A stretch of DNA of 64,000 nt from Patescibacteria group bacterium (GCA_041671645.1 JBAZBD010000001.1:799234-863233), one strand, 5' to 3'. Counted from the stretch's first letter, positions 3,714 to 31,919 are shown. Notes: generated from the sequence alone by a model not told the origin. Numbers and translations: made by a program.

Positions 3714-3720
3714 GGTTGCT

Positions 3721-4262: not shown

Positions 4263-4304
4263 GACAATTTGAGTATCCAAAATATAAAGTGCGAATAATT
4301 GTGA

Positions 4305-4381
4305 TGGTCGGGGATGCGAGACTCGAACTCACGACCTCTCGGTCCCAAACCGAGCGCTCTACCAACTGAGCCAATCCCCGA
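4305..4381 (-). tRNA. tRNA-Pro (anticodon TGG)
   Basis: Reverse complement TCGGGGATTGGCTCAGTTGGTAGAGCGCTCGGTTTGGGACCGAGAGGTCGTGAGTTCGAGTCTCGCATCCCCGACCA. Cloverleaf folds. Anticodon loop TTTGGGA, 3' CCA encoded. Confidence 0.85.
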
Positions 4382-4446
4382 ACTAAATTATCTTACATTA
4401 AATCAAGAATTTTTTCAATCTTTTCGCGATATTTCTTTGGTATGAA

Positions 4447-6402
4447 CTATTCATACCTCAAAGCTTCCATCGGCGAAAGCTTGCTCGCTCGTCTAGCCGG
4501 ATACACACCAGCCAATAATGAGACTAATGTTGTGACCACAATCATTTCTAAGGCAAAGAGCATTGGGGTAGCGAATATATTGAGACTGCCATCAATTGAG
4601 CTAACCTGCATTAAATAATTGATCAGAGCATTGATCGATTCCCCAAAAATCCAAGCGCCAACAACGCCAGCGATAGAACCAGTCAGACCGAAAAGTAAAA
4701 CTTCATACTCAAAAATCTTTTTGATGTCTCGGTTCGTGGCACCGATCGCCTTCATCGTACCGACCTCGTGTGTCCTCTCAAGCAACGAAATGGTCATGAT
4801 ATTGATAATTCCAATCAAGGCAACCATCAGAGCCACACCGCCGATAATACCTAAGATTATTTCTGTGATAAAAAAGATCTTGTCGACTTTCTTGATTAGA
4901 TCAACGACAGAGGTGGTCTGATAGCCAAGGTCGTCGATAGCATCCCTGGCGGCCTCCACATGCTTCCGATCGCTCACTTTCGCCTTGAGAGAGCTATATA
5001 TCGTGGTCTCATTGATCTTGGCCAATTCGTCGATAGGTAGGAATATCGCCGCGACAAGTTCATCATTGGAAACCCCGACGATTTTCTTTTTTGAGGTAGT
5101 TTCGTGAATGCTGGTCAAATCATTTGTATCCTTCGGCACGACCAAAAACGTAAGGTCCACCGTCTTGTTCAAAGCTGATGTCGGCTCCTTGATATCAAAA
5201 TTTTTGAGTGCTGCTTTGGATATCACTATCTCGTCATTTTCATCAAAACCTTCGCCTGCCACGGCGTACACTCCTTCAAAGGAGAGGGCTGACGCCTCGA
5301 GACCATAGGCGATGACCTGCTGAGCGCTGCTATCAATGGCGATTCTGGCAGTCGAAGTGATCGAAGGACTGACTAGGGTCACGTTTTGCACGTTTTTGAG
5401 CTCGAGGAGGGCGGTCTGATCCAGATGTTTAGTCGAATTTTTGTCGACATTTACATTTATCGTAACGAGAGAATCAAGAGAGGCAAGCTGATTTGAGGTA
5501 ATATTTTGCAAACCCATCCCCAAAGAAACGAGGGTGACGATAGACCCAACCCCCAAAGCTACGCCCAAGGCCGTCAGAAGTGTCCGCATCTTTTTGCTTA
5601 TGAAATGAAGTCGGGAAATCCGCAATATTTCCAGAAAACGAAGAGAGCCCCTCTTCTTTGGCACAAAATATTTCAAGCCATCATCTTCTAGATTATCGGG
5701 TGCAAGCACGCTTCGGGTCGCTTCGCTTTTGACAATCTTGCCATCCTTCATATGCAAAATTTTGTCACCGTAGTGAAGAAAATCCGGATTGTGAGTAACT
5801 AAAACGACCGTCCTGCCCCACTTCGTGCTGATGGTTTTGATCATTCTCATGATTTCAAGCCCCGTCGGCTCGTCCAAATTGCCGGTTGGCTCGTCCACTA
5901 GCAAAATCCAAGGATTGGCGACCAGTGCTCTAGCGATGGCGATCCTTTGTTGCTGTCCCCCAGAGAGTTCCACGGGCTTGTGATTCGCGCGGTCGCTCAA
6001 TTCCACCACAGAGAGCAATTCGCTCGCCCGTACATAAGCTTTTTTGCGGTCAACTCCAGAGAGAATCAGAGGCATTGCGATATTATCAATGGCAGAAAGA
6101 GTAGGAATTAAATTAAATTGCTGGAAAACCATCCCGATTTTGGTCCGACGATATTCCGCGAGTTCTGCCTCGGAAAGTGTGTAGATGTTTTGGTCATGCA
6201 CCCAAACTTGGCCGGCGGTCGGCTTGTCCAGTCCTCCCATCAAGCTAAGCAGGGTCGTCTTGCCGCAACCAGACGGACCGTAAATGACAACAAACTCTCC
6301 CGGCATGATATCAGTCTCAACACCCTTCAAGGCTTCAATATATTGATCTCCTACAAAAAAAGTCTTCTCGAGACCGGAAATTTTGATCACTGGTTTAGTC
6401 AT
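4447..6402 (-). CDS. MacB/FtsX-type ABC transporter, fused N-terminal ATPase and C-terminal permease with a large extracytoplasmic loop
   Basis: Walker A GPSGCGKTT, ABC signature LSGGQQQRIAIARAL, Walker B LLVDEPT. Then one TM helix, a roughly 230-aa extracytoplasmic domain and three C-terminal TM helices (FtsX-like). Start taken at MTKPVIK, which has a GGAAGAGA RBS; the ORF track begins 28 codons earlier. Confidence 0.8.
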   Translation of the reverse strand: MTKPVIKISGLEKTFFVGDQYIEALKGVETDIMPGEFVVIYGPSGCGKTTLLSLMGGLDKPTAGQVWVHDQNIYTLSEAELAEYRRTKIGMVFQQFNLIPTLSAIDNIAMPLILSGVDRKKAYVRASELLSVVELSDRANHKPVELSGGQQQRIAIARALVANPWILLVDEPTGNLDEPTGLEIMRMIKTISTKWGRTVVLVTHNPDFLHYGDKILHMKDGKIVKSEATRSVLAPDNLEDDGLKYFVPKKRGSLRFLEILRISRLHFISKKMRTLLTALGVALGVGSIVTLVSLGMGLQNITSNQLASLDSLVTINVNVDKNSTKHLDQTALLELKNVQNVTLVSPSITSTARIAIDSSAQQVIAYGLEASALSFEGVYAVAGEGFDENDEIVISKAALKNFDIKEPTSALNKTVDLTFLVVPKDTNDLTSIHETTSKKKIVGVSNDELVAAIFLPIDELAKINETTIYSSLKAKVSDRKHVEAARDAIDDLGYQTTSVVDLIKKVDKIFFITEIILGIIGGVALMVALIGIINIMTISLLERTHEVGTMKAIGATNRDIKKIFEYEVLLFGLTGSIAGVVGAWIFGESINALINYLMQVSSIDGSLNIFATPMLFALEMIVVTTLVSLLAGVYPARRASKLSPMEALRYE

Positions 6403-6664
6403 CGTTTCTCTTCCTGGCCAAAATTTGTTTGAGTTGATCCTCGATGAGCAATAAATCATGCATTGACTCGAACACTGAGAAAGCAAGAGCGAAAACGGCG
6501 ATGGCCGATATCAGCAAACCAGCTATGACCAATATTTTCTTGAGCAGCGAGGCGTCAGGGAAATTAACCAACAGCGATATGACGAATATCAATATCAAGG
6601 CGGCGATAATAATGCCTATAATCAAGACGAGGTAAGAGCCAAATTTTATTAGAAATCTTTTCAT
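6395..6664 (-). CDS. Small membrane protein (89 aa, 2 TM), translationally coupled to the ABC transporter
   Basis: Two strong hydrophobic helices. Its stop overlaps the ATG of the ABC gene (ATGACTAA). Confidence 0.45.
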   Translation of the reverse strand: MKRFLIKFGSYLVLIIGIIIAALILIFVISLLVNFPDASLLKKILVIAGLLISAIAVFALAFSVFESMHDLLLIEDQLKQILARKRNDD

Positions 6665-6666
6665 AA

Positions 6667-7386
6667 TTAGCTATTAAACCATTTCGCAAAGCCCTCAAAG
6701 GCACGCGACAACGCATCGATAATCACTTGGAAAATCGAAAGATCTTTGGCTGGATTTTTGGTCACAAACATCTGATCATCTGACTCGGCAGAATCAGTCG
6801 CGCCCTTGTTCACCGCCTTGATCTTCAGATGATATGTAGTAGCTGGTTTGAGTTTGTCCAGAATAATGGTATGACTCTGGTTTAGGCTCTCCTCTACCGC
6901 GGTCTCTGAGCCATATGATAGAGTTTCGCCATAAAACACCTGGCCGGTCGAGAGTATTTCTGTCTTGAAGGTCACAATCGCTTGAGATTCCGTCTTGCTA
7001 GTCGCGCCAGCTTCGATTTTGATTGCGGTGACTAAAGGCCTCCCAATCACGTCAATCGCCGAGGCGGAAGTAAACGAAATATTTGTGTTTGACACACGAT
7101 AAATATACGCGGCCAATGCAGTCACGTTTGAATCCATGTAGAAATTCAAATCGGTTTGGCCAAGCGTTGAATATGTTTTGCCTCCGTCCCCGCTCCTCTC
7201 GACGGTGACTGTGCCCTTGCCTTTCGGCCACGACAGAGCAAAGCCCGCCGTGTCCTTGGTCGAAATATTCGAAACTGTCAATCTGTCTTCAGCCGAAACT
7301 AATCCGATCTGGAAGAGGCTTATCAGTGCAGCAAGACCCAGGGCGACTAACCATTTTTTCTTGTTTAGAAACATATCTTTTTCCAT
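6667..7386 (-). CDS. Secreted protein with a C-terminal fibronectin-III-like β-sandwich domain
   Basis: Signal peptide (KKKWLVALGLAALISLFQIGLVSA). C-terminal region has an FN3-like pattern (...TTYHLKIKAVNKG...). Sits 3 nt downstream of the giant gene. Confidence 0.5.
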   Translation of the reverse strand: MEKDMFLNKKKWLVALGLAALISLFQIGLVSAEDRLTVSNISTKDTAGFALSWPKGKGTVTVERSGDGGKTYSTLGQTDLNFYMDSNVTALAAYIYRVSNTNISFTSASAIDVIGRPLVTAIKIEAGATSKTESQAIVTFKTEILSTGQVFYGETLSYGSETAVEESLNQSHTIILDKLKPATTYHLKIKAVNKGATDSAESDDQMFVTKNPAKDLSIFQVIIDALSRAFEGFAKWFNS

Positions 7387-7389
7387 TTG

Positions 7390-10300
7390 TTATTTATCGC
7401 GATCGATCTCTATCTTCCTTGAAACAGTTTGGAGCTTCTCCTGGGCATCCATATGCGTAGCGTCAGAAGGTTTGTATCCAGCTTTGGCAACCAGGAGTTT
7501 GTATTTGCCCTTTGGCAGGACGGTTGAGAATTTGCCCTTTTCGTTTGTGACTGCTGTTCGAATTAATCTTTTGCCTTCGCCGTCCATGATTCTGACTAAT
7601 GCCAATGAAACTCCCGAGTGATTGACGCTATCTAGGACATTGCCCCAAGGTGAGACTTTGACGAAAGACTTGATGTTGACGTACCAAAGCAGTGGGAAGA
7701 GCAGAGCTGAGACCAGGGTGACCGTGTCACGGTGACTGTGAGCCAAGCTATTCAGGATAGAGACGGTGCCAAAAATCAGGAAGCCGAGGGAAACGTAGAC
7801 CAATACTTTTTCGACAACCCCGATTTTCTCGATAAATGAAAATCTCTTGGCGATGCTCTTGTCGTTCATCGAAAGCAAAATATTTGGTACGATCAGTCCT
7901 TCTTGCTCGCTCTTAACCTCGATGATCTGACCCTTTTTGTAGAAACCTGGGGCTTCAGAAACTTCATATAGATCTTTGGTCACCTCAATCTCATATTTGC
8001 CTGGATCAGCGACAAAGCTGAAGTTGCCTTCGATATCAGAATATGTATTGGCTACCGGCCTCTTTGAGAACGAGCCAGGGAAAGTTTGAGTTAATTTGAA
8101 GAGCGTCAGTTTGGCTTGAGCGATTGGGATATAAGTGCCAACCTCAAGTACTCGGCCCCACTTGCGACGGCTTTTCTTGGTGCCGAGAGAGGCAAGGGCG
8201 AAGATCAAAGAGCGAATGTATTCAGGAAGTGAGAATAGAGTGGCGGCATTGGCCAGTGGAGCGGCGGCGGCAGAGATAATCGCTATGCCAGCGACAGCAG
8301 CGGTGCTGGCTGGAGTAGTTGTCGATGTTGGTATGCCAAAGACTACGGGTTGGCCTGAATTGTTGACGCCCACGATTTGCATCTGACCAATAATATCGCG
8401 AACTTTCATGGCTGTGCCAGAGAGATTGGAGATAACAGTATCTAGGACCGATTGCTCCTTGAAAATATCCTTGGTGGCGAAAGTAAAGTCTGTCGATTCG
8501 GCAGTTTGGCCATATTTATCTTTGGAAATGACAGCGAAATGGTAAGTTTTGTTGAAGTCCAAATCGGACAAAACAACTGTATGGAAAGAGTTGAGCCCAG
8601 TATCAACCTCGGTCGTGTAAGGGTATGGAGCAGAAGCGCCATATTTGACTTGAGTGGTGGCTGGAACGGTAGTTTTCCAAGTGATGGTGGCTTGAGCCTT
8701 CTCTGACATCAACTCGCTAGGAGTTGCCTTCACGTCTGATATCTCCAAAGTGCCCTCGCCTGGCTCATCTGGCGGCAGGATAACACAGCCAGAACAATCT
8801 ACAACCGTAGTTGTCTGGAACTCAGCTGCCATACTAGCTGTCTGGTTCTTGGCTAGATCAAAAGAGAATACGGAGTAGTTGAATTGGGTATTTGGCGTGA
8901 CTGTGTCGACATAAGAAGCGTAGCCAGAAGCGTCGACCTGGACGCCAGAGGTTGATTCAGAAATTATATTGTTGCCGTTTTTGACGATAGTGTAGCCGAG
9001 CAACCCAGAGCCAGTGTCAGTACTGGCCTTCCAGCGAAGCATCACTCGGTAGTCAGAGTTGACCCGATCAGAGATGTCGAAAGCTTCTACCTTTTCTAAT
9101 GATGATGGGAGGACCGTATCTAAGATGAAGGTAAGTTCCTCTGACCAAGCGAACTGATTGCCTAGATTATCGTTTGCGGCCACTCTGACGTAGTAAGTGC
9201 CGTCGGCCAGAGCACTGGCACCATCCAAGGTCAGAGAATTTGAAGGAGAAGTCAGCGTAGAGAGAGACAGAGCGTCATTTGCGTTGGCGCAGCCAGAAGT
9301 CTTGCAGATCTTGATACTGTAATTTAAAATTCCTGAATTTGTATCTGTTGCGGCTGGCCAAGTCAAAGTGACGGCTGGCTGATTGTAATATTCAATGTTG
9401 TCGATAGTGTTGGTCTTACCAGATACCGTTGGCTTGCCAGGAGCTGTTGGCTTGTCGCTGTCTGGCTTGCCAGAAGCTTGATTGGAGGCGGCTGAATAGT
9501 TGTCGACGCTATCGATAGCTTCAACTTTGTAATAGTATGTGACACCGCTTGTGACGTTGCTATCAATGTAAGTGGCAGTCGAAGATAGAGTCGTATAAGC
9601 GATCTTGTTCGTACCGATATTTGGTGTGAAATCGGCCTCGGTGGAACGGAAGATAGCGACATTGGCGAAGTCTGTGTCGGTCGGATTGACCCAAGAGAGC
9701 GAAACAGAAGCGCTAGCAGAGAGAGCGGTCAGATTCGTCGGTGCGGATGGCGCTGTGATATCTAGGATAATTGATGCCGAAGCAGTCGGCGACTCATCAC
9801 CATCGATATCTTTGACTTTCAGGTAAACCGTCTTCATCCCGTCAACAGTAGGAGCGGCCAAAGTCCATGACTTGCTGGTTGAGAATGTTTCATACTCGCT
9901 GCCAGAGAAATCAGGAGAATTTGAGACCTTCATTTGTGTGCCAGTGCTAGAAGAAAGCGTAAGTGTTTGATCTATTTGATTTGTCCTAGCCGAAGAGAAT
10001 GAGATCGTGCCAGTCGGCGGGAACCATTTGTTGGTATTGCCGAGATTGATCGAATTTGAAGGATCGATGACCGCACTGCTTAGATTCTTGGAGTTTTCGA
10101 CAGAAAGATAGGAAGTAGAGGTCGAGCCCTTTGGATCAATCTTCCATTGATCTGTACCTGTGCCGCCAGATCTACTGAGCGTGATATTTCCAGCAGAAGT
10201 TCCGTTCAAGCTTAATGCACCGTTGACCGTCTGAGTCGTATCAGAAGCGAAACTAATTGTTCGAGCCGCAGACGCTGTGGCAGATAGATTATTGAAAGTG

Positions 10301-22300: not shown

Positions 22301-25300
22301 GTACCGTTAGCAGAGTTTGCAGATAATTGGTAGAACTGGTTGCTGCCGCATTTAACATAGTATGTGTTGGCAGAGTTGATATTGTTGATCCATACCGCGC
22401 CGTCGTTATTCACAAACGTACCACCGCCAGACATGTCGAAGAGGAAGTCAGTGGCAACATCATTGGCGTCAAGTGTTAGGACCTGGGCAGGCGCGTTAAA
22501 TGTACCGCCATAGAGATAAAAATTGTAACTTTTAATTGTAACGGTGGCTGTGTTGCTGTTGAAGGTGCCCGAGATAATAGTAGTAGAATAACCGTTCAAG
22601 ACCAAGGTTGAAGAATTGGAATTAAAAGTGCCGCCGTTTAAGTATAGTCCGCCTACTGTCACAGTGCCTGTACCAGCATTGAAAACAGCACCAGACTCAA
22701 CATAGAAGCTGCCCATGTCGCTAGAAGTAAATGTGGCAGTGGCATTGATTGTACCGTAAATATATGCGCCAGAAGAACCAACACTTGCACCTGGGGTATA
22801 AACTTTTGAAGCCGGGATATGAAGAGAATAACTAGTCGAGAGTACATTGGAACCATCGACACTGAACAAGATTTTTCCATTCGCGTCAGAACAATTATCA
22901 GCAGTCGCAAGAATAGTATTGGTCATCGGGCCAGAGTCTTCATAGGTGAGAGAAACCAGGTAAGAGTAAAGCGACAAGCCCGTGATGTCGCTAGAGCCGG
23001 CCGCAACAGTCACAATATTACCAGCTGAATAATTGCCATCTTCGAAGAAAATTGTAATAACTGTTCCGGCGGTAACACCGCCGGCGACGAAATCAAAAGC
23101 GCCATTCCCATCGGTTGCCATTGTCTGTTTTGCACCACCATTAACCGAGGCAGAAACATTTTGCCCAGAGCCAACATTCCCCTGCCCAATTCCCTGATAT
23201 GCAGTACCCGAGATATGACTGCCGAGCCAGTTGGTATTATTACTACCAGATGCAGTTGAGTTGGTCGGTGCGATTGGTCGAGAATTTAGATTGTTTGAAT
23301 CAGAATAAGTAACACGATCGACTGTCCAAGGCGACATCCCACTGGTGTTCGCATTTATCTTCCATTGGCCCGAGCCTGCAGTGCCGTTGAGCTTCATGAC
23401 AATGTTATTCCCAGCCGCGCCCTGTATTGTGAGCGCTCCAGAAATAGTCTGGGTTGAGTCTGCTGCAAAAGATAATGTCTTGCCAGCAGTGGCACAAGTA
23501 AAGCTAGAAGGAGCGTTGTCGCCAGAGATCACCGATTCTTGAGCAGTATCAAATGTCACGACATAAGGCGAGAAAGTGCCGCCAGCCGTCGTAGTCAGAT
23601 TGCGTCCGATTGTAATATCGCTACCTGAGAAATAAGCGCCTGAGCTGATAGCCGCATCGCGCCCAACAACAACTGCATAAGACGGCGATAAATAGCCGTT
23701 CGTCACAGAAAAGTCATTCGATACCGTAAAGCCAGCACTATAACCTACTGTCCCATCACCAGTGTTTGCGTAAATATAATTATAGATAGGCGGAACGTTT
23801 GTAAACGTATATGGATTGTAACTGCTATTAGCAGGAATTGAGCCAATTTTGAAAGTACCATTGGCGTTATTGAAAGTACCGCCAGAGATATTCCAAGTAT
23901 AATCACTATAATATCCGTTTGAGTCAGTTGTAATAGTCAATGTGCCCGAAGTAGATGTAAATGTACCACCGCTCATCGCAAATGATGCGTTTAGCATAGT
24001 AATCGTAGCAGTGTCACCATTAAATGTAGCACCGGTGCTAACCGTAATTTGATAATTTGATAAGGTCAAATTTGAAGTGTTAGCATTGAAAGTACCGCCA
24101 GAGAAAGTAGGAGTAGCCAAGATGTGAGTACCGCTACCAGCATTGAACTCGCCGCCAGCCTGATAAAATGAGCTGGAAAGAGTGAGGTTATTGGCTTCCA
24201 TCTCAACAATGCCATCGTTATACATACCATAGGCGTTTACATTGCCGCCAGGAGTAAACATCGTATACTGAGTGACATAAAGATCATACATAGTACTGAG
24301 AGTCGAACCAGAGACCGAGAAATCAGAGAAACAGCCGCAGTCATCAGCAATCGCTAAATCTGCGTTTGTAATAGCCCCTGCGGTATAGTCACTGTAAAGA
24401 GTGGTCTTGTATCGATACATATTGAGACCAGTTTTGTCTATGGCGGATTCAGGCAAATAGACGATACTGCCGGAATTGTAGCTCGGATCATTATCAATAA
24501 AGATGGTGACTGGTTTGCCAGCAACAAGCTCGACCCCGCTAAAGGAAAAAGTACCACCGGAGCCAGTGACGCCCGACATCTTTCCGCCACCGTTTGAGGT
24601 AATGGAAATCGGGATATCAGCGCCCAAAACGCTGCCGCCGATACCATCGTAAATTGTGCCGGAAATCGTATTGCCGCCAGAATATGTAACTGTTAATTTT
24701 GGATCGAGTGCCGTACCATCATTTTCTGCAAAGTAGCCATAGAAGTAGACACTATCATAATCGGCATTTATGGTTGGCTGACTATCTGCAGCATCAGCAG
24801 TGATTCTAAGACCAAGCTTCGTAACACCAGATGTACTAATAGCTGCTAGACCGCTTGCATTCATCGCGAAATCGTTGTATCCCATATCGTTGTAACTGGC
24901 GTACGGAATCGCAGATGCAAATGCAGTTGTTCCGAAAGTGTCGTAATCCGATGCTTGAAGCGAAGTGTTGCTAGAAGGGTTCGAGGAATACAGACCCAAA
25001 CTCGAATTCCAACCCGAAGGGTCACCCATCTTGTATGCGCCATATACGGAAAAATTGGCAGCTGAGATAGTCGCGGTGTTTGGGATGCTAGAAGTATCAA
25101 AGAGAAACGCACTTCTTGAGACGTAAGCCCAAGCAGCGTTGTTGCCAGCGGCGATTGCGGCCATATCACCGCTTGTTCCGTCATCAGCAGCGCTATATCC
25201 GCCAGACCTTATGGAAGCCCAGTCCCAATTGCTCCTACTGCTGTAAGTGTACCCATCAACAGACGTGACTTCAGTATGAGTATTTGGATAATAAATAACA

Positions 25301-27273
25301 TCAGTATCAATCTTCATGTCAGACTTTGGCGCTGTCTCTTGCCAGACAAAGCTTGAATCCAAGCTGCCTTCGATCTTTTTGGCTTCGACTGCGACAACCT
25401 TGTCTTGGCCAGTCTCATCTTTGACGACTTCACCAGTTGAGGCATTTACATCAAAAGCTTCTGGCTTGTCTCTGAATTTGAGATCGTCTTTGACGACGAC
25501 AGTCTTGTTTTCTTTGGTCTCTGGGTCGGTGACGACAACACTTCCTTCTTTCCCGCCATCAGTCTTGGTCACATTCCACTGGAAATTCTTCGGCGCGTCT
25601 TCGCCCTTGATTGTCTTCCAGAGACGTACACCATACTCAGAGATGTCAAATTCAAATTTGAGGTTACCGTCATCGGTTGTGACCTGGCTATCCTCAGCCA
25701 AAATCTGTGGTGCAATCCATTTGGAAAGCGCGTTTCTGGTATCTTCGGCCATCTTCTGGTCAGGAGTGTTGATATCGGCCCAAGCCACTTTGCTGTCAGT
25801 TCCCTTTGATTTTGATAAAACTGGATTGCCATCGACGTCTTTCAGGGTCACCGTATATTTGTCGCCAGTTTGTCGAGACTCGATTTCATAGCCAATCTTG
25901 TCTTTGAAAACTTTGACAGTAGAGGGCATCTGGTCAAAAAGCACATATTCGGGCGTATCGATGGAATGATTTGGGTTGATATCCTTCCAGCTTGAGTCAG
26001 CCTTGGCATAATCTTCTTTGTAGTGGACAAGGCCGGTATAGGACTCTAGAGTCTTGGTGCCGTTCTTGTTGTCGATTGTCTTGGTAGTCTCTGTGCGATC
26101 AGCGACAATCTCATTTGGATTGGCCAAAATCTGGTCAGTGCCGTTGTTTGAAATAGTAGTATTCTTCTGGCCCTCTTCTTTGGCGATGACAAATGAATAT
26201 TCCTGGCTCCATGGCGACCAAGCGCCAACAGAGTCCTGATAGCGAACGCGAGAGTAGTAGGTTCCTTCGGTGAGTAGAGTTGTTAGCTTGATATTTGTCA
26301 GTTCGTCTTTGGGCTCTGTCTTTGTCTGATCGAAGATCGGAGAAGCATAATCGCCAGATTTGGTCGAAATCTGCCACTCTGAAGCGTTTTGCGTGTCATT
26401 GTCGATATCAAGATAAGAGCTAGCGCTTAGGGTCTGAGTATTTCTAAACAAGCTTTTGTCAGCAGTGAACGAGAGACCGGTTGGTGTATTTGGAAGTCTA
26501 GAGTAGAGCAAGGTCAAAGAGTGCAAAACAGGCGAAAGACTAGCGTCGCCAGTCGAAAGGGTCAAGCGTATGTAGAGAGTCTCGGAATCGGCCATCTCAA
26601 GGACATCGCTCGAAAACAAAATGTTGTCAGTAGAAAATTCCTTTTTGACAGCACCGCCGTTGAGTACTTCGCTGGCCTCGATCGAAAGCCAATCGACAAA
26701 CTCACCCTTGGCCGGGGTGTAGGCCAAAATCGCGTTGCCAGATTCCTGGTACTGATTTTGTGTAATATCTGAGTCTAACTTCGCACTTTGGGAAAGAGAG
26801 AGAGAATTGGGGTTATCGGCTGTCGAAAGTCCAGAAATAGTCCAACTCTGCCAAGCTTCCTGTGTGCCCCAAGCCACTTGTGAAGAGGCGAAAGTGCGAA
26901 TGACGCTGGTAGCAAAAACGGAGGTGAAGATAAGGGCCACGATGCCAGACATGTAGCCGGAGAGTGAAACCCAGTGAATTGCAGAAGCAAACGGGCTCAT
27001 GTGCCACTTGTAGTACCATCTGAATTTCATCCGAAGATTGTTGTGGAGGGTGGCGAAGACTGGAAAAGTAACCTTGGTCGAACGCTGGATCAAAATGATT
27101 TCACGTTCAAGCTGAGCTTCCTTCTTTTGGAGCTCTTTTTGCTTCTCCGCGACAATCACCTCTTCTTTGGTGAGACCTTCAATCGCTGCCTTGTCCTGAG
27201 GCAACAAAGTGTACTTCTCCAAAGGTGCTTTTTTGGAAAAATGACTGCGGAAAAATTTGCGTAGGCCCTTCAA
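7390..27273 (-). CDS. Giant (6627 aa) membrane-anchored multi-domain cell-surface protein. Domains: FN3, YVTN β-propeller, DUF285/BspA-like 25-aa repeats, InlB-B/Flg_new repeats, β-helix-like Gly/Thr/Asn repeats, and a C-terminal TM segment with CarboxypepD_reg-like domains.
   Basis: Single uninterrupted 19.9-kb ORF. N-terminal ~100-aa cytoplasmic segment, then a TM helix (MSGIVALIFTSVFATSVI). YVTN repeats (…GFVWVAN…SKIN…) fall in nt ~20480-21400. DUF285-type repeats (…MF…FNQNIS.WNT..VT.M…) in nt ~15440-15900. Flg_new-type ~70-aa repeats in nt 14880-15300 and 16380-17220. Duplicated FN3 modules and CVWDG…NW modules. C-terminus (nt ~7390-8700) has TM helices and GxFxFxxxPGKYEI-type carboxypeptidase-regulatory-like domains. 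Confidence 0.85.
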   Translation of the reverse strand: MKGLRKFFRSHFSKKAPLEKYTLLPQDKAAIEGLTKEEVIVAEKQKELQKKEAQLEREIILIQRSTKVTFPVFATLHNNLRMKFRWYYKWHMSPFASAIHWVSLSGYMSGIVALIFTSVFATSVIRTFASSQVAWGTQEAWQSWTISGLSTADNPNSLSLSQSAKLDSDITQNQYQESGNAILAYTPAKGEFVDWLSIEASEVLNGGAVKKEFSTDNILFSSDVLEMADSETLYIRLTLSTGDASLSPVLHSLTLLYSRLPNTPTGLSFTADKSLFRNTQTLSASSYLDIDNDTQNASEWQISTKSGDYASPIFDQTKTEPKDELTNIKLTTLLTEGTYYSRVRYQDSVGAWSPWSQEYSFVIAKEEGQKNTTISNNGTDQILANPNEIVADRTETTKTIDNKNGTKTLESYTGLVHYKEDYAKADSSWKDINPNHSIDTPEYVLFDQMPSTVKVFKDKIGYEIESRQTGDKYTVTLKDVDGNPVLSKSKGTDSKVAWADINTPDQKMAEDTRNALSKWIAPQILAEDSQVTTDDGNLKFEFDISEYGVRLWKTIKGEDAPKNFQWNVTKTDGGKEGSVVVTDPETKENKTVVVKDDLKFRDKPEAFDVNASTGEVVKDETGQDKVVAVEAKKIEGSLDSSFVWQETAPKSDMKIDTDVIYYPNTHTEVTSVDGYTYSSRSNWDWASIRSGGYSAADDGTSGDMAAIAAGNNAAWAYVSRSAFLFDTSSIPNTATISAANFSVYGAYKMGDPSGWNSSLGLYSSNPSSNTSLQASDYDTFGTTAFASAIPYASYNDMGYNDFAMNASGLAAISTSGVTKLGLRITADAADSQPTINADYDSVYFYGYFAENDGTALDPKLTVTYSGGNTISGTIYDGIGGSVLGADIPISITSNGGGKMSGVTGSGGTFSFSGVELVAGKPVTIFIDNDPSYNSGSIVYLPESAIDKTGLNMYRYKTTLYSDYTAGAITNADLAIADDCGCFSDFSVSGSTLSTMYDLYVTQYTMFTPGGNVNAYGMYNDGIVEMEANNLTLSSSFYQAGGEFNAGSGTHILATPTFSGGTFNANTSNLTLSNYQITVSTGATFNGDTATITMLNASFAMSGGTFTSTSGTLTITTDSNGYYSDYTWNISGGTFNNANGTFKIGSIPANSSYNPYTFTNVPPIYNYIYANTGDGTVGYSAGFTVSNDFSVTNGYLSPSYAVVVGRDAAISSGAYFSGSDITIGRNLTTTAGGTFSPYVVTFDTAQESVISGDNAPSSFTCATAGKTLSFAADSTQTISGALTIQGAAGNNIVMKLNGTAGSGQWKINANTSGMSPWTVDRVTYSDSNNLNSRPIAPTNSTASGSNNTNWLGSHISGTAYQGIGQGNVGSGQNVSASVNGGAKQTMATDGNGAFDFVAGGVTAGTVITIFFEDGNYSAGNIVTVAAGSSDITGLSLYSYLVSLTYEDSGPMTNTILATADNCSDANGKILFSVDGSNVLSTSYSLHIPASKVYTPGASVGSSGAYIYGTINATATFTSSDMGSFYVESGAVFNAGTGTVTVGGLYLNGGTFNSNSSTLVLNGYSTTIISGTFNSNTATVTIKSYNFYLYGGTFNAPAQVLTLDANDVATDFLFDMSGGGTFVNNDGAVWINNINSANTYYVKCGSNQFYQLSANSANGTVVTQDTLLVEHSLNITLANTFNAYGYNVETKHFAQDTGTFSAPNGTMKVSGDFIRDGGTFSNNYGTVELNSASLAQVVGGSTEFYNFTMTTSTARTISFNPGTNQTVTGQWTATGIADNLLTLQRNGTGAQWEITPSTSMDNQWTVDYVSVSNSKNNAANPISPTNWTKGVNVTNWDVLPGCVWDGGGTGNNWSTAENWTLDTVPDAACDVVFDSTSTKASTLDSGFTAHIKSLSINTGYTDTVTLGADLNDDGALNLAEGTLSAGNYTINIGGSWNNTGGTFTKGTSTVNFNGTAAATVASNSNDFYNITVAGQAGTISTPYAWIANSGATTTTKIDTSSNAVTTHTIGAAEFGVAVDNSGFIWQTNRSNGTLTKINASTNSVDASITIGSDPYGVAIDSNGFVWVASGTNNVAYKINPTTNAIAATVNVGARAYGIAADSSGFVWVANFNSNTVSKINATTDTVVATITVGTQPAGVAVDLNGFVWVPNYGTSDVSKINPTTNTVVATVSAGTNAFGVAADANGFVWVSNLGTNTVTKINTATNAVAATVTVGSAPCGVAVDASGFVWVTNSSANSVSKINGSTNVVAATINTGLAPYSLGDFTGYAYKKIVLSQGGTGSITLSDALVASNNLTVSSGTFTSGANAVTVGSFIQTDGTFAAPSTTMSVANDFTHTAGTFTHNSGTVVFNGGDSSIQDISGDTTFSAVTIQPGATTTKTLKFEASKTQTIAGALTVSGASGRVISLNSSSDGSTWSIDPQSTRAISYASVKDSINANATAIYTDNSGSNVTSAGNNVNWFASAPPNAASTVAITSIDSTLFTVTWTDNSSDETGFKVFTAAGNADCSAASYSGTPDYTTAADATSQAITGKTINTQYCAKVIATNADGDSDPAFAAPKYTLANTPDAPTVTAYDWSAASGNNMAAVINVNSNPAGTEFALSCNATPDSWLQGDGTCGASKVWKTKVNWETGTVNYLKNLTSNTLYSVKALARNGDTTETSASSAGTATSAPAQPASLTHTANTASQISWDWADVAGASSYRLLKSSDDSDVGSPSASAYDQGSLSANTQYTNYVRAYNGVLGQASSTASAYSSIEAASGITFGTIATDSIQVSATGTFTNLSVGSSGLYITKSAGTGTGFASWNTNNNTLTNTGLSPNTQYSYTAQARNGDGETTAATDSISKYTLAAAPDAPTLAASSASVINIKLTDNSSTTYAIAVSADGGSTWNYVKHADGTNQASEDWQNYAAWGGASGFDNVSLSPNVQYTYKVKARNGDNTETAFSSTAAKYTLANVPSAPTVDATSSSSLTVKINQNSNPAGTNYAVYNDTLSKYVQADGSSDTSAVWQDYTTWGGASGVTNTGLTANTEYTYKVKAKNGDNVETALSSGTAQTTVDVAPTEPNTVAIGTLTTTGFTVTWTDASSNETGFKVYTAAGNADCSAASYSGTPDYTTAAGAISQAITSKSINTQYCAKVIATNAIGDSAPAYAAPKYTLAAAPDAPTLAASSASVINIKLTDNSSTTYAIAVSADGGSTWNYVKHADGTNQASEDWQNYAAWGGASGFDNVSLSPNVQYTYKVKARNGDNTETAFSSTAAKYTLANVPGTPTFGTVTSTTIPVLIAQNSNPSNTTYAIKVVYGATTKYVQANSTLGDSAVWQAYATWGSSKTVTGLTANTLYTFSVAATNGDSVATAYSATADQSTLAVYTLTYNSGANGSVIGSSPQTVDHGSSGSEVVATPAANYHFVKWSDNDSTNPVRTDTNVTANITTTASFAIDTHTLAYSAGANGSIVGTTPQTIDHGASGSEVTATPAANYHFVSWSDDVMTAARTDSNVAGDIAVTASFAIDTHTLTYSAGANGSIVGTTPQTVDHGSSGSEVTATPAANYHFVSWSDDVMTAARTDLNVADNISVTATFAINTYTLTYNAGSNGSVVGTSPQTVDYGANGSQVTATPAAGYYFVDWSDANTTAARTDTNVTVDITVTANFALQFLSRWDTSKTSSGSSTATQIHLPLESTGTYNFIVDWGDSSTSTITTWNQAETTHTYASGGIYDLKIGGTITGFRFNNAGDKLKLSQISQFGPLRLGNSDGYFSGTKNLKITATDVLNTTGTTTMKNSFRDSGIDTVPSMNSWDMSAVTDMYCMFESSSLFNQDISSWNTGAVTSMYAMFYNAFVFNQNIGSWNTTNVINMAYMFESAWAFNQNISSWNTGSVTTMREMFWNNSAFNQNISNWNTGAVTNMNQMFYSAAAFNQNLASWNVVNVTDMTNMFSSSALSNANYSNILIGWSAQAVKSNVTLGAATKKYTLGAAADGRAHLVSAHTWTITDGGPSAFVLTYSAGSGGSIVGITPQTVDYGANGSEVTATPAANYHFTSWSDGVLTAARTETNVITDKSVTASFAIDTHTLTYSAGANGSVVGSTPQTVNYGANGSQVTATPAANYHFVSWSDDVMTAARTDSNVAGDIAVTASFALDAPASATGVTITPTSSTTFNVTWTDNSSIETGYKVYTADGNADCSAASYSGTPDTTTSADAVSQAIASKSVNTQYCAKVVATNSGGDSAPAYAAPKYTLANVPTFTTVAGDYSDADLWHLDTTINASANPAGTNYYIQYSTNDGAGAGNFYDPNAMAWQTETTYLFKKDKDNVDLAANTQYWMKVKAKNGDNVETIYTSTSVADVTPPAAPTALNITNICTTKATTTWTAATGADSYTVSYGTDTAATNIGTLTTATTSKQITGLSNTTTYYWKASATSTANGTGPYAAPSSFETSNCGVESPDDFAGSAASTTQINWTWSDITSEETGYKVEDSAHTSLSGNLDAGSTSYNETPLSANTGYTRHVNVYNGGGSQDSNSDTVYTLAAVPGQPTVTTLSSSRIRITVDKNGNPNANTRYAIAVSADAGSTWNYVKNADGTTQVSEDWQLYADWGGDSGFANTGLTKNTNYIYKIKARNGDNVATDFGATNNTTTLDNFSVTISSDGSGSGSLDQVTQIVDAGADVTTTATAAASSDFVSWTGCDTVATNICYLTDVSADRSITAVFTIKTYTITINEAGTGTGDLDQVTQDVNYGANLTVVATADISSTFTGWSGDATGTGDASFTNITANKTITATFTIKTYTITINTTGTGMGDLDQATQTVNYGANLTVVATPAASSTFAGWSGDATGTGDASFTNITANKTITATFTIRSYTVTISKAGNGTGDLDQSTQVVTYGANLTVAATPAVSSDFTGWSGDAAGTGSAALTNITADKTITATFTLKTYTISSSAGSNGAISPLGDNLANYGTSPEYTITPSDGYYISNVVVDGSAISGTLPSSYTFTNVTATHSISVSFAANNTCVWDGQAADDNWSSADNWTANIIPSATCDVIFDATSTKDSTLDASFTSHIKSLSVNTGYSGTISANTTLNDDGDFTLNAGTFTANAQTLNIAGSLTMTADPTAVFNEGTSTINFNPTTTGKTITTNGQVLGNLIFNGVDAVIDPNVTLLNNNISLLANHTLTAGWTFQDNVSAQSLTANAGTLVDGGKSVNIAGDIIIANKVGVLASTGVWTQSSSGNIANPDMHNTFGSLVAAGSGITSTMTAGVSVGLGSGSAGAFTVGPGTLMGIGKAVIVYSRSNDSVTVNNLTADSRLGVLAIYPQIADMTQKAITLPSNFATTFSFQQDPTGILTATGNFNFGNSNVIVAKDRTTTPAGYVDMSTHNLTCKNLTIGSTSTNEYATIPGYLKLGSGTTNIAGSLSHGNASNIGNKLDLGSGTINVGGNWDTSNITVTPGTSTVDLTGTGTLQSKGYAAAPYDFYNLKLAHNGNTTNAISSVTTSNVLYTYAGGTLNGDNRYAFRMYKSDGDAVVNTGANFTASTFLVYRPSSDVTVAGQNFGQGSVAYSGVTNDVAITLSSDVTTTRDIYAYSITTGKRTTLNAVDNNLTARNLYLAYPVYGVGTANLGSGTHEFTNGIFRYTGSTDDTNVLNLESSSVSIGGNIDFTGMTVDPGTSTITLNGIGGQTVAGSNTFNNLSATASAARTISFASDTTQTVNGALSLNGTSAGNITLSRSGGTGTDQWKIDPKGSTSTSYLSVENSKNLSSAVIDPSNSINLGNTNKWFPPTGTISFSSARTNQIDQTLTLSSSTGTQMKVSNSPDFSGSEYETFSTSKSWTLAAPTVDGMKTVYLKVKDIDGDESPTASASIILDITAPSAPTNLTALSASASVSLSWVNPTDTDFANVAIFRSTEADFTPNIGTNKIAYTTLSSTATYIDSNVTSGVTYYYKVEAIDSVDNYSAASNQASGKPDSDKPTAPGKPTVSGKTNTIDNIEYYNQPAVTLTWPAATDTNSGILNYSIKICKTSGCANANDALSLSTLTSPSNSLTLDGASALADGTYYVRVAANDNLGNQFAWSEELTFILDTVLPSSLEKVEAFDISDRVNSDYRVMLRWKASTDTGSGLLGYTIVKNGNNIISESTSGVQVDASGYASYVDTVTPNTQFNYSVFSFDLAKNQTASMAAEFQTTTVVDCSGCVILPPDEPGEGTLEISDVKATPSELMSEKAQATITWKTTVPATTQVKYGASAPYPYTTEVDTGLNSFHTVVLSDLDFNKTYHFAVISKDKYGQTAESTDFTFATKDIFKEQSVLDTVISNLSGTAMKVRDIIGQMQIVGVNNSGQPVVFGIPTSTTTPASTAAVAGIAIISAAAAPLANAATLFSLPEYIRSLIFALASLGTKKSRRKWGRVLEVGTYIPIAQAKLTLFKLTQTFPGSFSKRPVANTYSDIEGNFSFVADPGKYEIEVTKDLYEVSEAPGFYKKGQIIEVKSEQEGLIVPNILLSMNDKSIAKRFSFIEKIGVVEKVLVYVSLGFLIFGTVSILNSLAHSHRDTVTLVSALLFPLLWYVNIKSFVKVSPWGNVLDSVNHSGVSLALVRIMDGEGKRLIRTAVTNEKGKFSTVLPKGKYKLLVAKAGYKPSDATHMDAQEKLQTVSRKIEIDRDK
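14880..15320. repeat. Tandem ~210-bp coding repeats (Flg_new/InlB-B-like) inside the giant gene, cluster 1
   Basis: Repeated DNA blocks, e.g. ...gttcgagccgcggtcatgacatcatcagaccag..., shared at about 85–95% with 16380-17220. Confidence 0.7.
16380..17220. repeat. Tandem ~210-bp coding repeats (Flg_new/InlB-B-like) inside the giant gene, cluster 2, four units
   Basis: Four consecutive units of about 90% identity at the DNA level (16380-16590, 16590-16790, 16790-16990, 16990-17220). Confidence 0.7.
17489..17828. repeat. 340-bp perfect direct repeat, copy A, encoding a duplicated FN3 module of the giant protein
   Basis: By my base-by-base reading, identical to 18413..18752. The flanks diverge immediately. 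Confidence 0.85.
18413..18752. repeat. 340-bp perfect direct repeat, copy B (924 bp from copy A)
   Basis: Identical to 17489..17828. Encodes APDAPTLAASSASVINIKLTDNSSTTYAIAVSADGGSTWNYVKHADGTNQASEDWQNYAAWGGASGFDNVSLSPNVQYTYKVKARNGDNTETAFSSTAAKYTLANVP twice. Confidence 0.85.
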
Positions 27274-27429
27274 CTTCCCTCCTGCGACAACCAGTCTTAT
27301 TATTATGAGTATATTTTAACAAGAGAAGTGAACTCGTTCAAGGGCAAAAGAGGGTCTTGGCTGTTGATAAGATACAGAAAAATAGAACAAATTTATTTGC
27401 CTCATATTTGTCTTTGCTAGACTAGATAA

Positions 27430-31918: not shown

Positions 31919-31919
31919 A

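What the first reader, a model, noticed from the sequence alone, without database searches (positions are those of the whole stretch)
4447..27273. Giant 6627-aa mosaic surface protein with a dedicated downstream operon (FN3 protein, micro-membrane protein, MacB/FtsX-type ABC transporter)
A single 19.9-kb ORF encodes a protein with an N-terminal cytoplasmic segment plus TM anchor. Its ectodomain chains together FN3 modules, a YVTN β-propeller, DUF285/BspA-like repeats, InlB-B/Flg_new repeats and β-helix-like repeats. The C-terminal region has further TM helices followed by carboxypeptidase-regulatory-like domains. Downstream in the same orientation, with 3-nt gaps, lie a secreted FN3 protein, an 89-aa 2-TM protein and a fused ATPase-permease of the MacB/FtsX family with a ~230-aa extracytoplasmic domain. 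The stop/start overlap ATGACTAA between the last two suggests translational coupling. MacB/FtsX transporters act as mechanotransmitters on extracytoplasmic partners. Pairing one with a giant adhesin-like protein may represent a surface-remodelling, episymbiont attachment or protein-release apparatus.
Basis: partly seen in the sequence, partly recalled or inferred. Interest (0 to 1): 0.6.

Follow-up and report, generated by a model that had tools for sequence, protein, structure and literature searches.

The report
Giant two-end-anchored surface protein with MacB cassette
A tiny-genome Patescibacterium (candidate phyla radiation) spends 2.3% of its DNA on one 6,627-residue membrane-anchored surface protein whose gene is followed by a small partner protein, a mini membrane protein and a MacB-type ATP-driven machine, and this four-gene set recurs in distant relatives, which makes it a concrete but untested lead for how these bacteria build or operate their attachment surface.

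Summary
There is a 6,627-aa ORF (7390..27273, minus strand), followed by a secreted two-FN3 protein, an 89-aa two-TM protein and a fused MacB-type ABC protein. The junctions are 3 nt, 2 nt and an 8-nt ATGACTAA overlap.

New findings:
- The giant belongs to an apparently undescribed Patescibacterial family. Members share an N-terminal cytoplasmic motif plus TM and a collinear ~870-aa C-terminal base that ends in a TM / CarboxypepD_reg / 2-TM / CarboxypepD_reg anchor. The mosaic middle is shuffled between members.
- The small FN3 protein is a free-standing paralogue of the giant's membrane-proximal FN3-plus-helix module (hhalign 99.3%).
- The four-gene cassette recurs at 43-56% identity in a contig with different flanks. 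However, FN3-2TM-MacB also occurs without a giant beside it, and giants occur without FN3 or MacB.

So 'dedicated operon' is overstated. FN3 is the shared element between two separable modules. The most likely mechanism is that a type VII ABC machine acts outside the membrane on the FN3 protein, and through it on the giant's base. That mechanism is inferred, not shown.

Verdict: new variant of a known kind; moderate interest.

The parts
27313..27341 (-). Promoter-like site (TTGAAC, 17-nt spacer, TAAAAT with upstream TG) in the 156-nt gap upstream of the giant gene
   Evidence: Consensus scan. The sequence is shown. It is a consensus match only.
7390..27273 (-). Giant gene, 6,627 aa (deposited as MFA6963897.1). 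TTG start lies 4 nt after AGGAGG.
26974..27087 (-). Conserved N-terminal cytoplasmic motif, aa ~63-100 (IQRSTKVTFPVFATLHNNLRMKFRWYYKWHMSPFASAIHW)
   Evidence: The same motif occurs in 12 of the 39 anchor-family relatives whose sequences were read (43 examined by regex). The N-terminal block aa 4-148 is 39-46% identical to P0031, P0024 and P0028.
26887..26970 (-). TM1 / signal-anchor, aa ~102-129
   Evidence: Kyte-Doolittle scan.
10018..26886 (-). Variable mosaic ectodomain, aa ~130-5752. Contents in order: unassigned repeat regions; YVTN/NHL propeller (~aa 1990-2260); fn3 arrays (~2460-3360 and 4130-4620); Flg_new_2/Flg_new repeats (~3360-3650, 3990-4130, 4620-4990); DUF285/PARCEL (~3650-3990).
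   Evidence: Pfam and NCBIfam. This region is shuffled relative to homologues. Internal DNA repeats include a 300-nt pair at 98% identity.
8407..10017 (-). Conserved 'base' of Ig/FN3-like domains, aa ~5753-6289, collinear in all relatives compared
   Evidence: blastp HSPs covering q5753-6627 at 38-45% identity to P0031, P0024, P0022, P0023 and P0028; tblastn.
8473..8697 (-). Last FN3 domain (Pur_ac_phosph_N type), aa ~6193-6267, paralogous to the second FN3 of the small protein
   Evidence: Pfam. BLASTP 37% identity, E 7e-14. hhalign 99.3%, E 5e-20.
8383..8472 (-). Juxtamembrane helix, aa ~6268-6297 (KDIFKEQSVLDTVISNLSGTAMKVRDIIGQ). It is the counterpart of the small protein's C-terminal helix.
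   Evidence: The hhalign alignment runs through this segment. The motif is present only in giants that have an FN3 gene downstream: 4 of 4 against 0 of 3.
7393..8406 (-). C-terminal anchor module, aa 6290-6627. Order: TM (~6322-6347), KKSRRKWG, CarboxypepD_reg-like domain 1 (~6373-6460), TM3-TM4 (~6490-6538), CarboxypepD_reg domain 2 (~6544-6612).
   Evidence: The exhaustive HMMER search gave 2,357 proteins at E<=1e-3 and 44 at E<=1e-30; among the strongest hits with near full-length coverage the match lies at or within about 30 residues of the C-terminus.
6667..7386 (-). Secreted FN3 protein, 239 aa: a signal peptide with a VSA|ED site, two beta-sandwich domains, and a highly conserved C-terminal amphipathic helix (IFQVIIDALSRAFEGFAKWFNS)
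   Evidence: AlphaFold2 model with pLDDT 73. Foldseek finds tandem FN3 structures.
6395..6664 (-). 89-aa two-TM protein with a short cytoplasmic tail (conserved AVFESM motif)
   Evidence: Homologues occupy the same position in L082 (43% identity), L098 (36%), L089 (49%) and L091 (37%). No Pfam or NCBIfam hit.
4447..6402 (-). Fused MacB-type (type VII) ABC protein, 651 aa: NBD, TM1, ~222-aa MacB_PCD, and three TM helices (FtsX domain). Its start overlaps the stop of the 89-aa gene (ATGACTAA).
   Evidence: Aligns end to end with solved E. coli MacB 5nik_J (4-649 against 3-646, E 3e-74).
4305..4380 (-). tRNA-Pro(UGG). Marks the downstream end of the block; it is not part of the system.

Best explanation
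The locus joins two separable modules through one shared component.

Module 1 is a surface protein anchored in the membrane at both ends.
- A short cytoplasmic N-terminus with a conserved motif is followed by a signal-anchor helix.
- About 6,190 residues lie outside the cell: a variable mosaic of binding-type repeats sits on a constant ~540-aa stalk base.
- Three more TM helices follow, placing two CarboxypepD_reg beta-sandwich domains in the cytoplasm.
- The variable part is most likely a ligand- or host-binding surface. The constant ends are the mounting.

Module 2 is a type VII (MacB-type) ABC machine made of the fused ATPase-permease, an 89-aa two-TM accessory protein and a Sec-exported two-FN3 protein.

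The FN3 protein is a free-standing copy of the giant's membrane-proximal FN3-plus-helix unit. I propose that it docks on that unit of the giant, helix to helix, and is either held or expelled by the outside domain of MacB. ATP hydrolysis inside the cell would then be converted into a conformational stroke outside. That stroke would load, position or release the FN3 partner at the giant's base, and so assemble, stiffen or free the surface fibre.

Shown:
- gene order and junctions;
- domain content;
- homology of FN3 to the giant's base;
- recurrence and separability of the modules;
- family-wide conservation of both termini.

Inferred:
- membrane topology;
- co-transcription;
- every physical contact;
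- the direction and purpose of the stroke.
For: Junctions and transcription signals:
- The junctions are 3 nt, 2 nt and an 8-nt overlap. Only one promoter-like site was found, upstream of the giant.

MacB identity and mechanism:
- MacB architecture is complete and collinear with solved MacB.
- The family works by mechanotransmission on extracytoplasmic cargo, including Sec-exported proteins such as STII and dispersin (PMC8277102).

Conservation of FN3-(2TM)-MacB:
- FN3-2TM-MacB is conserved in the window, the P0004 contig, L098 and L082-L086. L089 shows it with FN3 cut by the contig end. L091 shows only FN3-2TM. L002 has FN3-MacB without the 2TM gene.

Conservation of giant-FN3 adjacency:
- Adjacency is verified in the window, L092, L096/L097 and L098, with overlapping or near-abutting junctions and unrelated flanks.
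- In the P0004 contig a large partial ORF sits upstream of FN3, but its homology to the giant was not checked.

FN3 as a paralogue of the giant's base:
- The second FN3 domain and C-terminal helix of the small protein are homologous to the giant's last FN3 and juxtamembrane helix (hhalign 99.3%, E 5e-20).
- The juxtamembrane helix motif is present in all 4 giants that have a downstream FN3 gene, and absent in all 3 that do not.
- The C-terminal helix is the most conserved part of the FN3 family.

Family structure and background:
- The N-terminal block and the ~870-aa C-terminal block are conserved while the middle is shuffled.
- Giant membrane proteins are a recognised feature of candidate-phyla-radiation surfaces and are thought to mediate host attachment (PMC8080830).
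Against: - The trio exists with no giant beside it in L082-L086.
- Giants exist with no FN3 or MacB beside them in L094, L095 and L099. L096 has giant-FN3 but no MacB within 10 kb.
- Adjacency could be a relic of FN3 arising by duplication of the giant's 3' end.
- The helix/FN3 correlation rests on 7 loci that are not phylogenetically independent.
- No interaction, transcript or phenotype was tested.
- The single-sequence AlphaFold2 model of the anchor was unusable (pLDDT 35), so the topology rests on hydropathy and the positive-inside rule only.
- I could not see whole genomes, so I cannot say whether genomes carrying the trio always carry such a giant somewhere else.
Confidence: 0.4

Rival explanations
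1. Independent neighbours. FN3-2TM-MacB is a self-contained envelope system. It might push the FN3 protein, or some other Sec-exported cargo, lipid or peptide, out through the wall, or it might protect against antimicrobial peptides. It lies next to the giant only because the FN3 gene originated as a duplicate of the giant's 3' end and the gene order has persisted.
For: - The trio stands alone between mnmA and recG in L082-L086.
- FN3-MacB-recG-comEA order occurs in L002.
- Giants occur without the trio in L094, L095 and L099.
- The FN3 homology to the giant's base is exactly what a duplication origin predicts.
- MacB-family pumps are known to handle diverse, unrelated cargo (PMC8277102).
Against: - Tight junctions between giant and FN3 (3 nt here, a 4-nt overlap in L098 and in the P0004 contig) persist down to ~40% protein identity, with different flanking genes.
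- FN3 stays beside the giant even where MacB is absent (L092, L096).
- The giant's juxtamembrane helix co-varies with the presence of the FN3 gene.
Confidence: 0.35
2. Biogenesis or quality-control helper. The MacB machine assists membrane integration or clearance of the giant. For example, it could extract the N-terminal signal-anchor or a stalled translocation intermediate from the outer leaflet, by analogy with LolCDE extracting lipoproteins. In this reading FN3 acts as a chaperone-like mimic of the giant's base.
For: - A ~6,190-residue ectodomain threaded through Sec between two anchors is an extreme substrate.
- The MacB family includes membrane extractors such as LolCDE (established knowledge; PMC8277102).
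- FN3 mimics the giant's last extracellular module.
Against: - Equally large relatives (at least 5,960 aa and 3,847 aa) have no adjacent FN3 or MacB.
- The trio occurs without a giant next to it.
- FN3 has no lipobox, and nothing in the sequences points to extraction.
Confidence: 0.1
3. FtsEX-like control of cell-wall hydrolysis. The ABC protein activates a peptidoglycan hydrolase through an extracellular adaptor (FN3), opening the wall so that the giant fibre can pass or turn over.
For: - FtsEX-type proteins activate hydrolases through extracytoplasmic adaptors (established knowledge).
- LysM/CHAP hydrolase genes follow giant genes in L094, L095 and L096.
Against: - No hydrolase gene lies in or next to the cassette in the window, L098 or L082.
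- FN3 has no coiled-coil-plus-hydrolase architecture.
- The protein is a fused MacB, not a split FtsE/FtsX pair.
- The LysM/CHAP genes sit in a conserved obg-rpoBC neighbourhood, so they may be unrelated to the giant.
Confidence: 0.07

Closest known systems
MacB of the MacAB-TolC pump (type VII ABC transporters; solved structures 5NIK, 5LIL, 5GKO)
   Same: Same fused architecture from end to end: an N-terminal ATPase, four TM helices, and a ~220-aa periplasmic core domain between TM1 and TM2. It presumably uses the same mechanotransmission stroke and acts on material already outside the membrane (PMC8277102).
   Different: - It is not an orthologue (297 bits against the 966-bit equivalog cut-off).
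- No MacA-type adaptor or TolC-type duct is present in the window, and Patescibacteria are not known to have an outer membrane.
- Its conserved partners are instead a secreted two-FN3 protein and a two-TM mini-protein.
AatPABCD / dispersin system of enteroaggregative E. coli
   Same: A MacB-like pump is paired with a small Sec-exported surface protein. According to my own knowledge of the literature, that protein modifies how an adhesin is displayed. The review PMC8277102 describes the pump and its 10-kDa cargo.
   Different: Aat uses a split permease and ATPase, a TolC-like AatA and further subunits, and it works across an outer membrane. Dispersin is unrelated to FN3. The E. coli adhesin is a fimbria, not a membrane-anchored giant.
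FtsEX with extracytoplasmic partners (EnvC, PcsB, CwlO with SweC/SweD)
   Same: A type VII ABC protein transmits ATP hydrolysis to a helical element of an outside partner. Small membrane cofactors occur, such as SweC/SweD (own knowledge).
   Different: Here ATPase and permease are fused. The partner has no hydrolase or hydrolase-activator domain, and there is no cell-division context.
Giant membrane proteins of candidate-phyla-radiation bacteria (for example the 1,392-4,163-aa proteins of Vampirococcus lugosii, PMC8080830)
   Same: Very large, membrane-localised mosaics containing fibronectin and other binding domains in a reduced genome, thought to mediate host recognition and attachment.
   Different: - This one is larger (6,627 aa).
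- It has defined, family-wide conserved modules at both termini.
- It is genetically linked to an ABC machine.
- None of these features is described in the papers I could search.
Giant RTX adhesins with type I secretion and retention control (LapA with LapBCE and LapG/LapD; SiiE)
   Same: A giant repetitive adhesin is encoded beside an ABC system that determines its surface display (own knowledge; SiiE review listed).
   Different: Those adhesins are exported C-terminus first by a HlyB-type ABC exporter with an adaptor and an outer-membrane duct, and they have no TM anchors. Here the giant has an N-terminal signal-anchor and a three-TM C-terminal anchor, and the ABC protein is of the MacB type, which does not carry substrates across its own membrane.

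Membership tests
MacB / type VII ABC transporter superfamily | ABC ATPase domain with Walker A, signature and Walker B motifs | tested here: met
   PF00005, 113.9 bits. GPSGCGKTT, LSGGQQQR and LLVDEPT can be read directly in the translation.
MacB / type VII ABC transporter superfamily | Four TM helices with a large extracytoplasmic core domain between TM1 and TM2, and a C-terminal FtsX permease domain | tested here: met
   TM helices at 274-292, 515-533, 568-586 and 615-633. PF12704 covers 274-491 (65.7 bits) and PF02687 covers 519-644 (72.3 bits).
MacB / type VII ABC transporter superfamily | Full-length collinearity with structurally solved MacB | tested here: met
   5nik_J: residues 4-649 align to 3-646, E 3.2e-74. 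5gko and 5lil give similar results.
MacB proper (macrolide exporter orthologue, MacAB-TolC) | Score above the NCBIfam equivalog cut-off | tested here: not met
   NF007826 scores 297 bits against a cut-off of 966.
MacB proper (macrolide exporter orthologue, MacAB-TolC) | Adjacent membrane-fusion protein (MacA/HlyD type) and outer-membrane duct | tested here: not met
   The large ORFs of the window that were scanned (about 34 proteins) give no HlyD, MFP or OEP family hit. The neighbours are the FN3 and two-TM proteins. The rest of the genome was not seen.
MacB / type VII ABC transporter superfamily | ATP-driven mechanotransmission to the outside domain | not testable with these tools
   Needs biochemistry or structures. 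Inferred only from family membership (PMC8277102).
FtsEX-hydrolase activator systems | Separate FtsE and FtsX genes, and a coiled-coil partner that is or controls a peptidoglycan hydrolase | tested here: not met
   Here the protein is fused. The FtsE model matches only the ATPase part, below its cut-off. FN3 has two beta-sandwich domains and one short helix, with no hydrolase domain.
LolCDE-type lipoprotein extraction | Lipoprotein cargo with a lipobox cysteine | tested here: not met
   The window's FN3 signal peptide has no cysteine. The aligned FN3 signal regions show Ala-X-Ala-type sites rather than a lipobox.
Type I-secreted giant RTX adhesins (LapA/SiiE type) | No N-terminal signal, a C-terminal secretion signal, and a HlyB-type ABC exporter with adaptor and duct | tested here: not met
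   The giant has an N-terminal TM anchor and three C-terminal TM helices. The ABC protein is MacB-type.
BspA-like / PARCEL (DUF285) surface proteins (the name given in GenBank) | DUF285 / PARCEL repeat region | tested here: met
   PF03382, 162-168 bits; TIGR02167, 61.8 bits. This covers only about 340 of the 6,627 residues, so the GenBank name describes one insert and not the protein.
Two-end-anchored Patescibacterial surface proteins (family delineated here; not found described in the literature searched) | C-terminal module: TM, basic stretch + WG, CarboxypepD_reg, two TM helices, CarboxypepD_reg, at the extreme C-terminus | tested here: met
   Query aa 6290-6627: 44 cluster representatives at E<=1e-30 and 593 at E<=1e-10. 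Among the strongest hits with near full-length coverage the match lies at or within about 30 residues of the C-terminus of proteins 238-5,960 aa long. PF13620 scores above its cut-off.
Two-end-anchored Patescibacterial surface proteins (family delineated here; not found described in the literature searched) | N-terminal cytoplasmic motif (xSTxxxFxxFxxxHxxLRxKFxWYYxWH) followed by a TM helix | tested here: met
   Present in the window giant and in 12 of the 39 anchor-family relatives whose sequences were read (43 examined by regex). The N-terminal block is 39-46% identical to three relatives.

The most novel reading that the evidence does not exclude
The cassette could encode a new kind of type VII ABC machine. 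A MacB-type motor, acting through a secreted FN3-plus-helix adaptor that mimics and engages the giant's membrane-proximal module, would mechanically actuate a ~6,000-residue surface loop tethered at both ends. Actuation could mean erecting, tensioning, retracting or shedding the loop. The result would be an ATP-powered attachment or detachment device for ultrasmall episymbiotic bacteria. The conserved cytoplasmic N-terminal motif and the two cytoplasmic CarboxypepD_reg domains would then be the inside handles of the same apparatus.
Probability: 0.15. Interest if true: 0.85.

Novelty: new variant of a known kind. Interest (0 to 1): 0.55.

Why it matters
Patescibacteria make up a large share of bacterial diversity, and the cultivated ones live attached to host cells. 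Apart from type IV pili, their attachment hardware is largely unknown.

This locus offers three concrete handles:
- A widely distributed family of surface proteins with constant membrane mountings at both ends and an exchangeable, mosaic outer part. That layout is what one would expect for host- or ligand-recognition proteins under diversification.
- A small secreted paralogue of the giant's base, which links it genetically to a MacB-type motor.
- A MacB relative that works without the usual adaptor and outer-membrane duct. This bears on what type VII ABC machines do in cells that have no outer membrane.

If the link is physical, it would be a new use of mechanotransmission. If it is not, the family definition and the FN3/MacB trio are still useful annotation for thousands of 'hypothetical' or misnamed ('BspA family') genes.

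Tried and rejected
- The word-index homologue search with the FN3 protein found only 8 proteins. It missed true orthologues later seen in L096 and L098, so its counts understate the family.
- The same tool, run with the C-terminal 478 aa, returned only generic Pur_ac_phosph_N-type FN3 hits. Run with the anchor alone it returned nothing. The exhaustive HMMER search was needed.
- The genome-contig scan with MacB gave mostly ATPase-only LolD-like hits in Bacteroidota. Only two full-length relatives came back.
- The metagenome scan with the FN3 alignment gave just 5 loci.
- The AlphaFold2 model of the giant's last 458 aa, made from a single sequence, was unusable (pLDDT 35). The anchor fold and topology therefore remain predictions from hydropathy and Pfam.
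- Foldseek on the FN3 model returned only generic tandem FN3 structures, which says nothing about function.
- Five literature searches and targeted reading found no description of this cassette or family.
- I considered and rejected these classifications: type I-secreted RTX adhesin, FtsEX, LolCDE, and a true MacAB-TolC orthologue (see the membership tests).
- I considered an assembly artefact and rejected it.
- The P0025 context look-up was uninformative because the contig ends 42 nt after the gene.
- The upstream glycosyltransferase cluster is not conserved next to the other giants, so I did not include it in the system.
Full report

Yes. The six-frame ORF list shows four consecutive ORFs on the minus strand:
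- 7390..27273 (6,627 aa);
- 6667..7386 (239 aa);
- 6395..6664 (89 aa);
- 4447..6486, for which the sensible start is the ATG at 6402 (651 aa).

The giant starts at a TTG that lies 4 nt after AGGAGG. A promoter-like TTGAAC-17-TAAAAT site sits in the 156-nt gap upstream (27341..27313). The scans found no promoter-like or terminator-like site at the internal junctions. tRNA-Pro follows MacB directly.

The protein is deposited as MFA6963897.1 ('BspA family leucine-rich repeat surface protein') from a Patescibacteria-group MAG, on an 867,751-bp contig. The gene is therefore about 2.3% of that contig. A Logan assembly of run SRR18595301 (whether it is an independent sample is not known) carries the last 1,797 codons and the three downstream genes at 100% identity.

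**2. Domain content**

- fn3 arrays;
- a YVTN/NHL beta-propeller (TIGR02276);
- a DUF285/PARCEL block;
- at least a dozen Flg_new_2 (InlB B-repeat) units, plus Flg_new;
- a Pur_ac_phosph_N-type FN3 near the end;
- CarboxypepD_reg above its cut-off, in two stretches at the extreme C-terminus.

That call is unverified.

The composition is Thr/Ser/Ala/Gly/Asn-rich.

Hydropathy places TM helices at about 102-129, 6322-6347, 6490-6508 and 6520-6538. The N-terminus is basic, and KKSRRKWG follows the second helix. The most economical topology therefore has three features:
- the N-terminus is inside the cell;
- about 6,190 residues are outside;
- both CarboxypepD_reg domains are inside.

This would be a surface loop tethered at both ends. 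It is an inference. My single-sequence structure prediction of this region failed (pLDDT 35).

**3. The ABC protein**

It has ABC_tran, MacB_PCD and FtsX domains and four TM helices, with about 222 residues outside between TM1 and TM2. It aligns from end to end with solved E. coli MacB (5nik_J, residues 4-649 against 3-646, E 3e-74). It falls far below the MacB equivalog cut-off (297 against 966 bits). So it is a MacB-type (type VII) ABC protein but not a MacB orthologue.

None of the window's other ORFs that I scanned is a MacA-type adaptor or a TolC-type duct.

**4. The small FN3 protein**

It has these parts:
- a signal peptide with an Ala-X-Ala-type site and no lipobox;
- two beta-sandwich domains;
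- a C-terminal amphipathic helix, the most conserved stretch of the family (IIDALSRAFxGFxKWFxS).

An AlphaFold2 model from an 8-sequence alignment (pLDDT 73) shows exactly this layout. Foldseek returns generic tandem FN3 structures.

Its second FN3 domain and helix are homologous to the giant's last FN3 domain and the helix that precedes the giant's C-terminal TM. BLASTP gives 37% identity, E 7e-14. The profile-profile comparison gives 99.3% probability, E 5e-20, and the alignment runs through the helix. The small protein is thus a free-standing paralogue of the giant's membrane-proximal module.

**5. The giant belongs to a family with two constant ends**

An exhaustive HMMER search with residues 6290-6627 found 2,357 proteins at E<=1e-3, 593 at E<=1e-10 and 44 at E<=1e-30. 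The weaker hits are probably CarboxypepD_reg matches only. Among the strongest hits with near full-length coverage, the match lies at or within about 30 residues of the C-terminus of proteins 238 to 5,960 aa long.

Reading 39 of these proteins (43 examined by regex), 12 also carry the giant's N-terminal motif (xSTxxxFxxFxxxHxxLRxKFxWYYxWH) followed by a TM helix.

Pairwise BLAST shows two things:
- The conserved C-terminal block is about 870 aa (5753-6627). It is collinear at 38-45% identity in the five relatives compared.
- The N-terminal block (4-148) is 39-46% identical in three of them, while the middle is shuffled.

Named members come from Candidatus Berkelbacteria and the 'Patescibacteria group'. 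I found no description of this family in the literature I could search.

**6. Is the link to the downstream genes conserved?**

Contexts recovered:

| Type | Locus | Gene order |
|---|---|---|
| a | window / L001 | giant - FN3 - 2TM - MacB |
| a | P0004 contig | partial ORF of at least 1,507 aa (homology to the giant not checked; no DNA held) - FN3 - 89 aa - MacB |
| a | L098 | 4,681-aa giant - FN3 (43%) - 2TM (36%) - MacB (56%), 4-nt overlaps, unrelated flanks |
| b | L092/L093 | giant - FN3, then a prepilin/LamG gene |
| b | L096/L097 | giant - FN3, then cdaA-ybbR-LysM/CHAP-obg-rpoBC |
| c | L094, L095 | giant - LysM/CHAP, no FN3 or MacB |
| c | L099 | giant between rplA and rplJ, no FN3 or MacB |
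| d | L082-L086 | mnmA - FN3 - 2TM - MacB - recG, no giant |
| d | L002 | contig starts 77 nt before FN3, then MacB - recG - comEA |
| d | L089, L091 | cut inside FN3, upstream unknown |

Three conclusions follow:
- The cassette recurs.
- The two modules are separable.
- FN3 is the element common to both.

The juxtamembrane helix motif (SVLDTVIxNLS) is present in the four giants that have an FN3 gene downstream and absent in the three that do not. This fits an FN3-giant helix contact. However, the sample is small and the loci are not phylogenetically independent.

**7. Mechanism**

MacB-family proteins do not carry substrates across their own membrane. ATP binding is transmitted through the stalk helices to the outside domain, which then acts on material already exported. 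That material includes Sec-exported proteins such as enterotoxin STII and the 10-kDa dispersin. Homologues in cells without an outer membrane are thought to push cargo through the wall (PMC8277102).

The best-supported reading is therefore that MacB and the 2TM protein act on the secreted FN3 protein as adaptor or cargo. FN3 in turn engages the homologous FN3-helix unit at the giant's base, which affects assembly, stiffness or release of the fibre. I give this reading 0.4.

The main rival, at 0.35, is that the trio is an independent envelope system and that adjacency reflects FN3's origin by duplication of the giant's 3' end. Biogenesis or quality-control roles and FtsEX-like wall-remodelling roles are less likely (see the rival explanations).

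The giant's variable mosaic on a constant base, together with what is reported for candidate-phyla-radiation giant membrane proteins (PMC8080830) and for essential FN3- and lectin-domain envelope proteins in Southlakia (PMC10633639), makes a ligand- or host-binding role plausible. That role is unproven.

**8. Verdict**

The locus is a new variant of known kinds: a type VII ABC machine with unusual partners, joined to a giant candidate-phyla-radiation surface protein of a family that appears undescribed. Interest is moderate (0.55). The genomic pattern is solid and gives testable contacts, but no functional step has been shown.

Noticed in passing
window 27430..31500 (minus strand): Three genes lie directly upstream of the giant in the same orientation: a GT2 glycosyltransferase (242 aa), a PMT_2/GT39-type membrane glycosyltransferase (612 aa; GenBank calls it 'glycosyltransferase family 39') and a second GT2-like membrane protein (511 aa). 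They have overlapping junctions. A polyprenol-phosphate sugar synthase plus a PMT-like enzyme could O-glycosylate the Thr/Ser-rich giant. This cluster is not found next to the other giants examined (L096, L098, L099).
   Followed up: partly
window 4305..4380 and 31843..31993: The 27-kb block made of the glycosyltransferases, the giant and the trio is bracketed by tRNA genes on the same strand (tRNA-Pro on one side, tRNA-Thr and tRNA-Gly on the other). Its G+C content (0.45-0.50) is higher than that of the next 12 kb (0.42). This may simply reflect the giant's amino-acid composition; I did not test for an island.
   Followed up: no
window 17477..17776 and 18401..18700: A 300-nt direct repeat at 98% identity lies inside the giant's FN3 array, 924 nt apart. 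It encodes an identical ~110-aa stretch twice. It is a likely substrate for in-frame expansion or contraction of the array.
   Followed up: partly
L099 10001..19495: A 3,164-aa member of the same family (P0028, MFA7253443.1) is inserted between rplA (L1) and rplJ (L10), inside the normally tight L11-L1-L10-L7/L12 ribosomal gene cluster.
   Followed up: no
L094 20553..21419; L095 11810..12892; L096 22314..23393: LysM+CHAP peptidoglycan-hydrolase genes lie just downstream of giant family members in three contigs, followed in L095 and L096 by obg and rpoBC. This could be functional (opening the wall for the fibre) or just conserved gene order.
   Followed up: no
L092 2180..3307: In one relative, the gene after giant-FN3 is a prepilin-type (N_methyl) protein with a Laminin_G_3 domain instead of 2TM-MacB. 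This is a possible link between this surface system and type IV pilus components.
   Followed up: no
window 53699..56001 (minus strand): ComEC appears split into two overlapping ORFs: DUF4131+Competence (479 aa) and the metallo-beta-lactamase domain (288 aa).
   Followed up: no
window 1823..3607 (minus strand): A 594-aa protein with a lipoprotein-type signal (LVAGC) and weak alpha/beta-hydrolase/lipase matches lies just beyond the cassette. So the organism does appear to make lipoproteins, even though the cassette's FN3 protein is not one.
   Followed up: no
L082 20544..20720: A bAvd / 23S_rRNA_IVP family gene, typical of diversity-generating retroelement accessory proteins, lies about 7.5 kb from the stand-alone FN3-2TM-MacB trio. 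No such element was seen in the window.
   Followed up: no
L082 13024..13236 (also L084-L086): In the giant-less version of the trio, an extra 70-aa two-TM glycine-rich protein follows MacB. It has no counterpart in the window, where tRNA-Pro follows instead.
   Followed up: no
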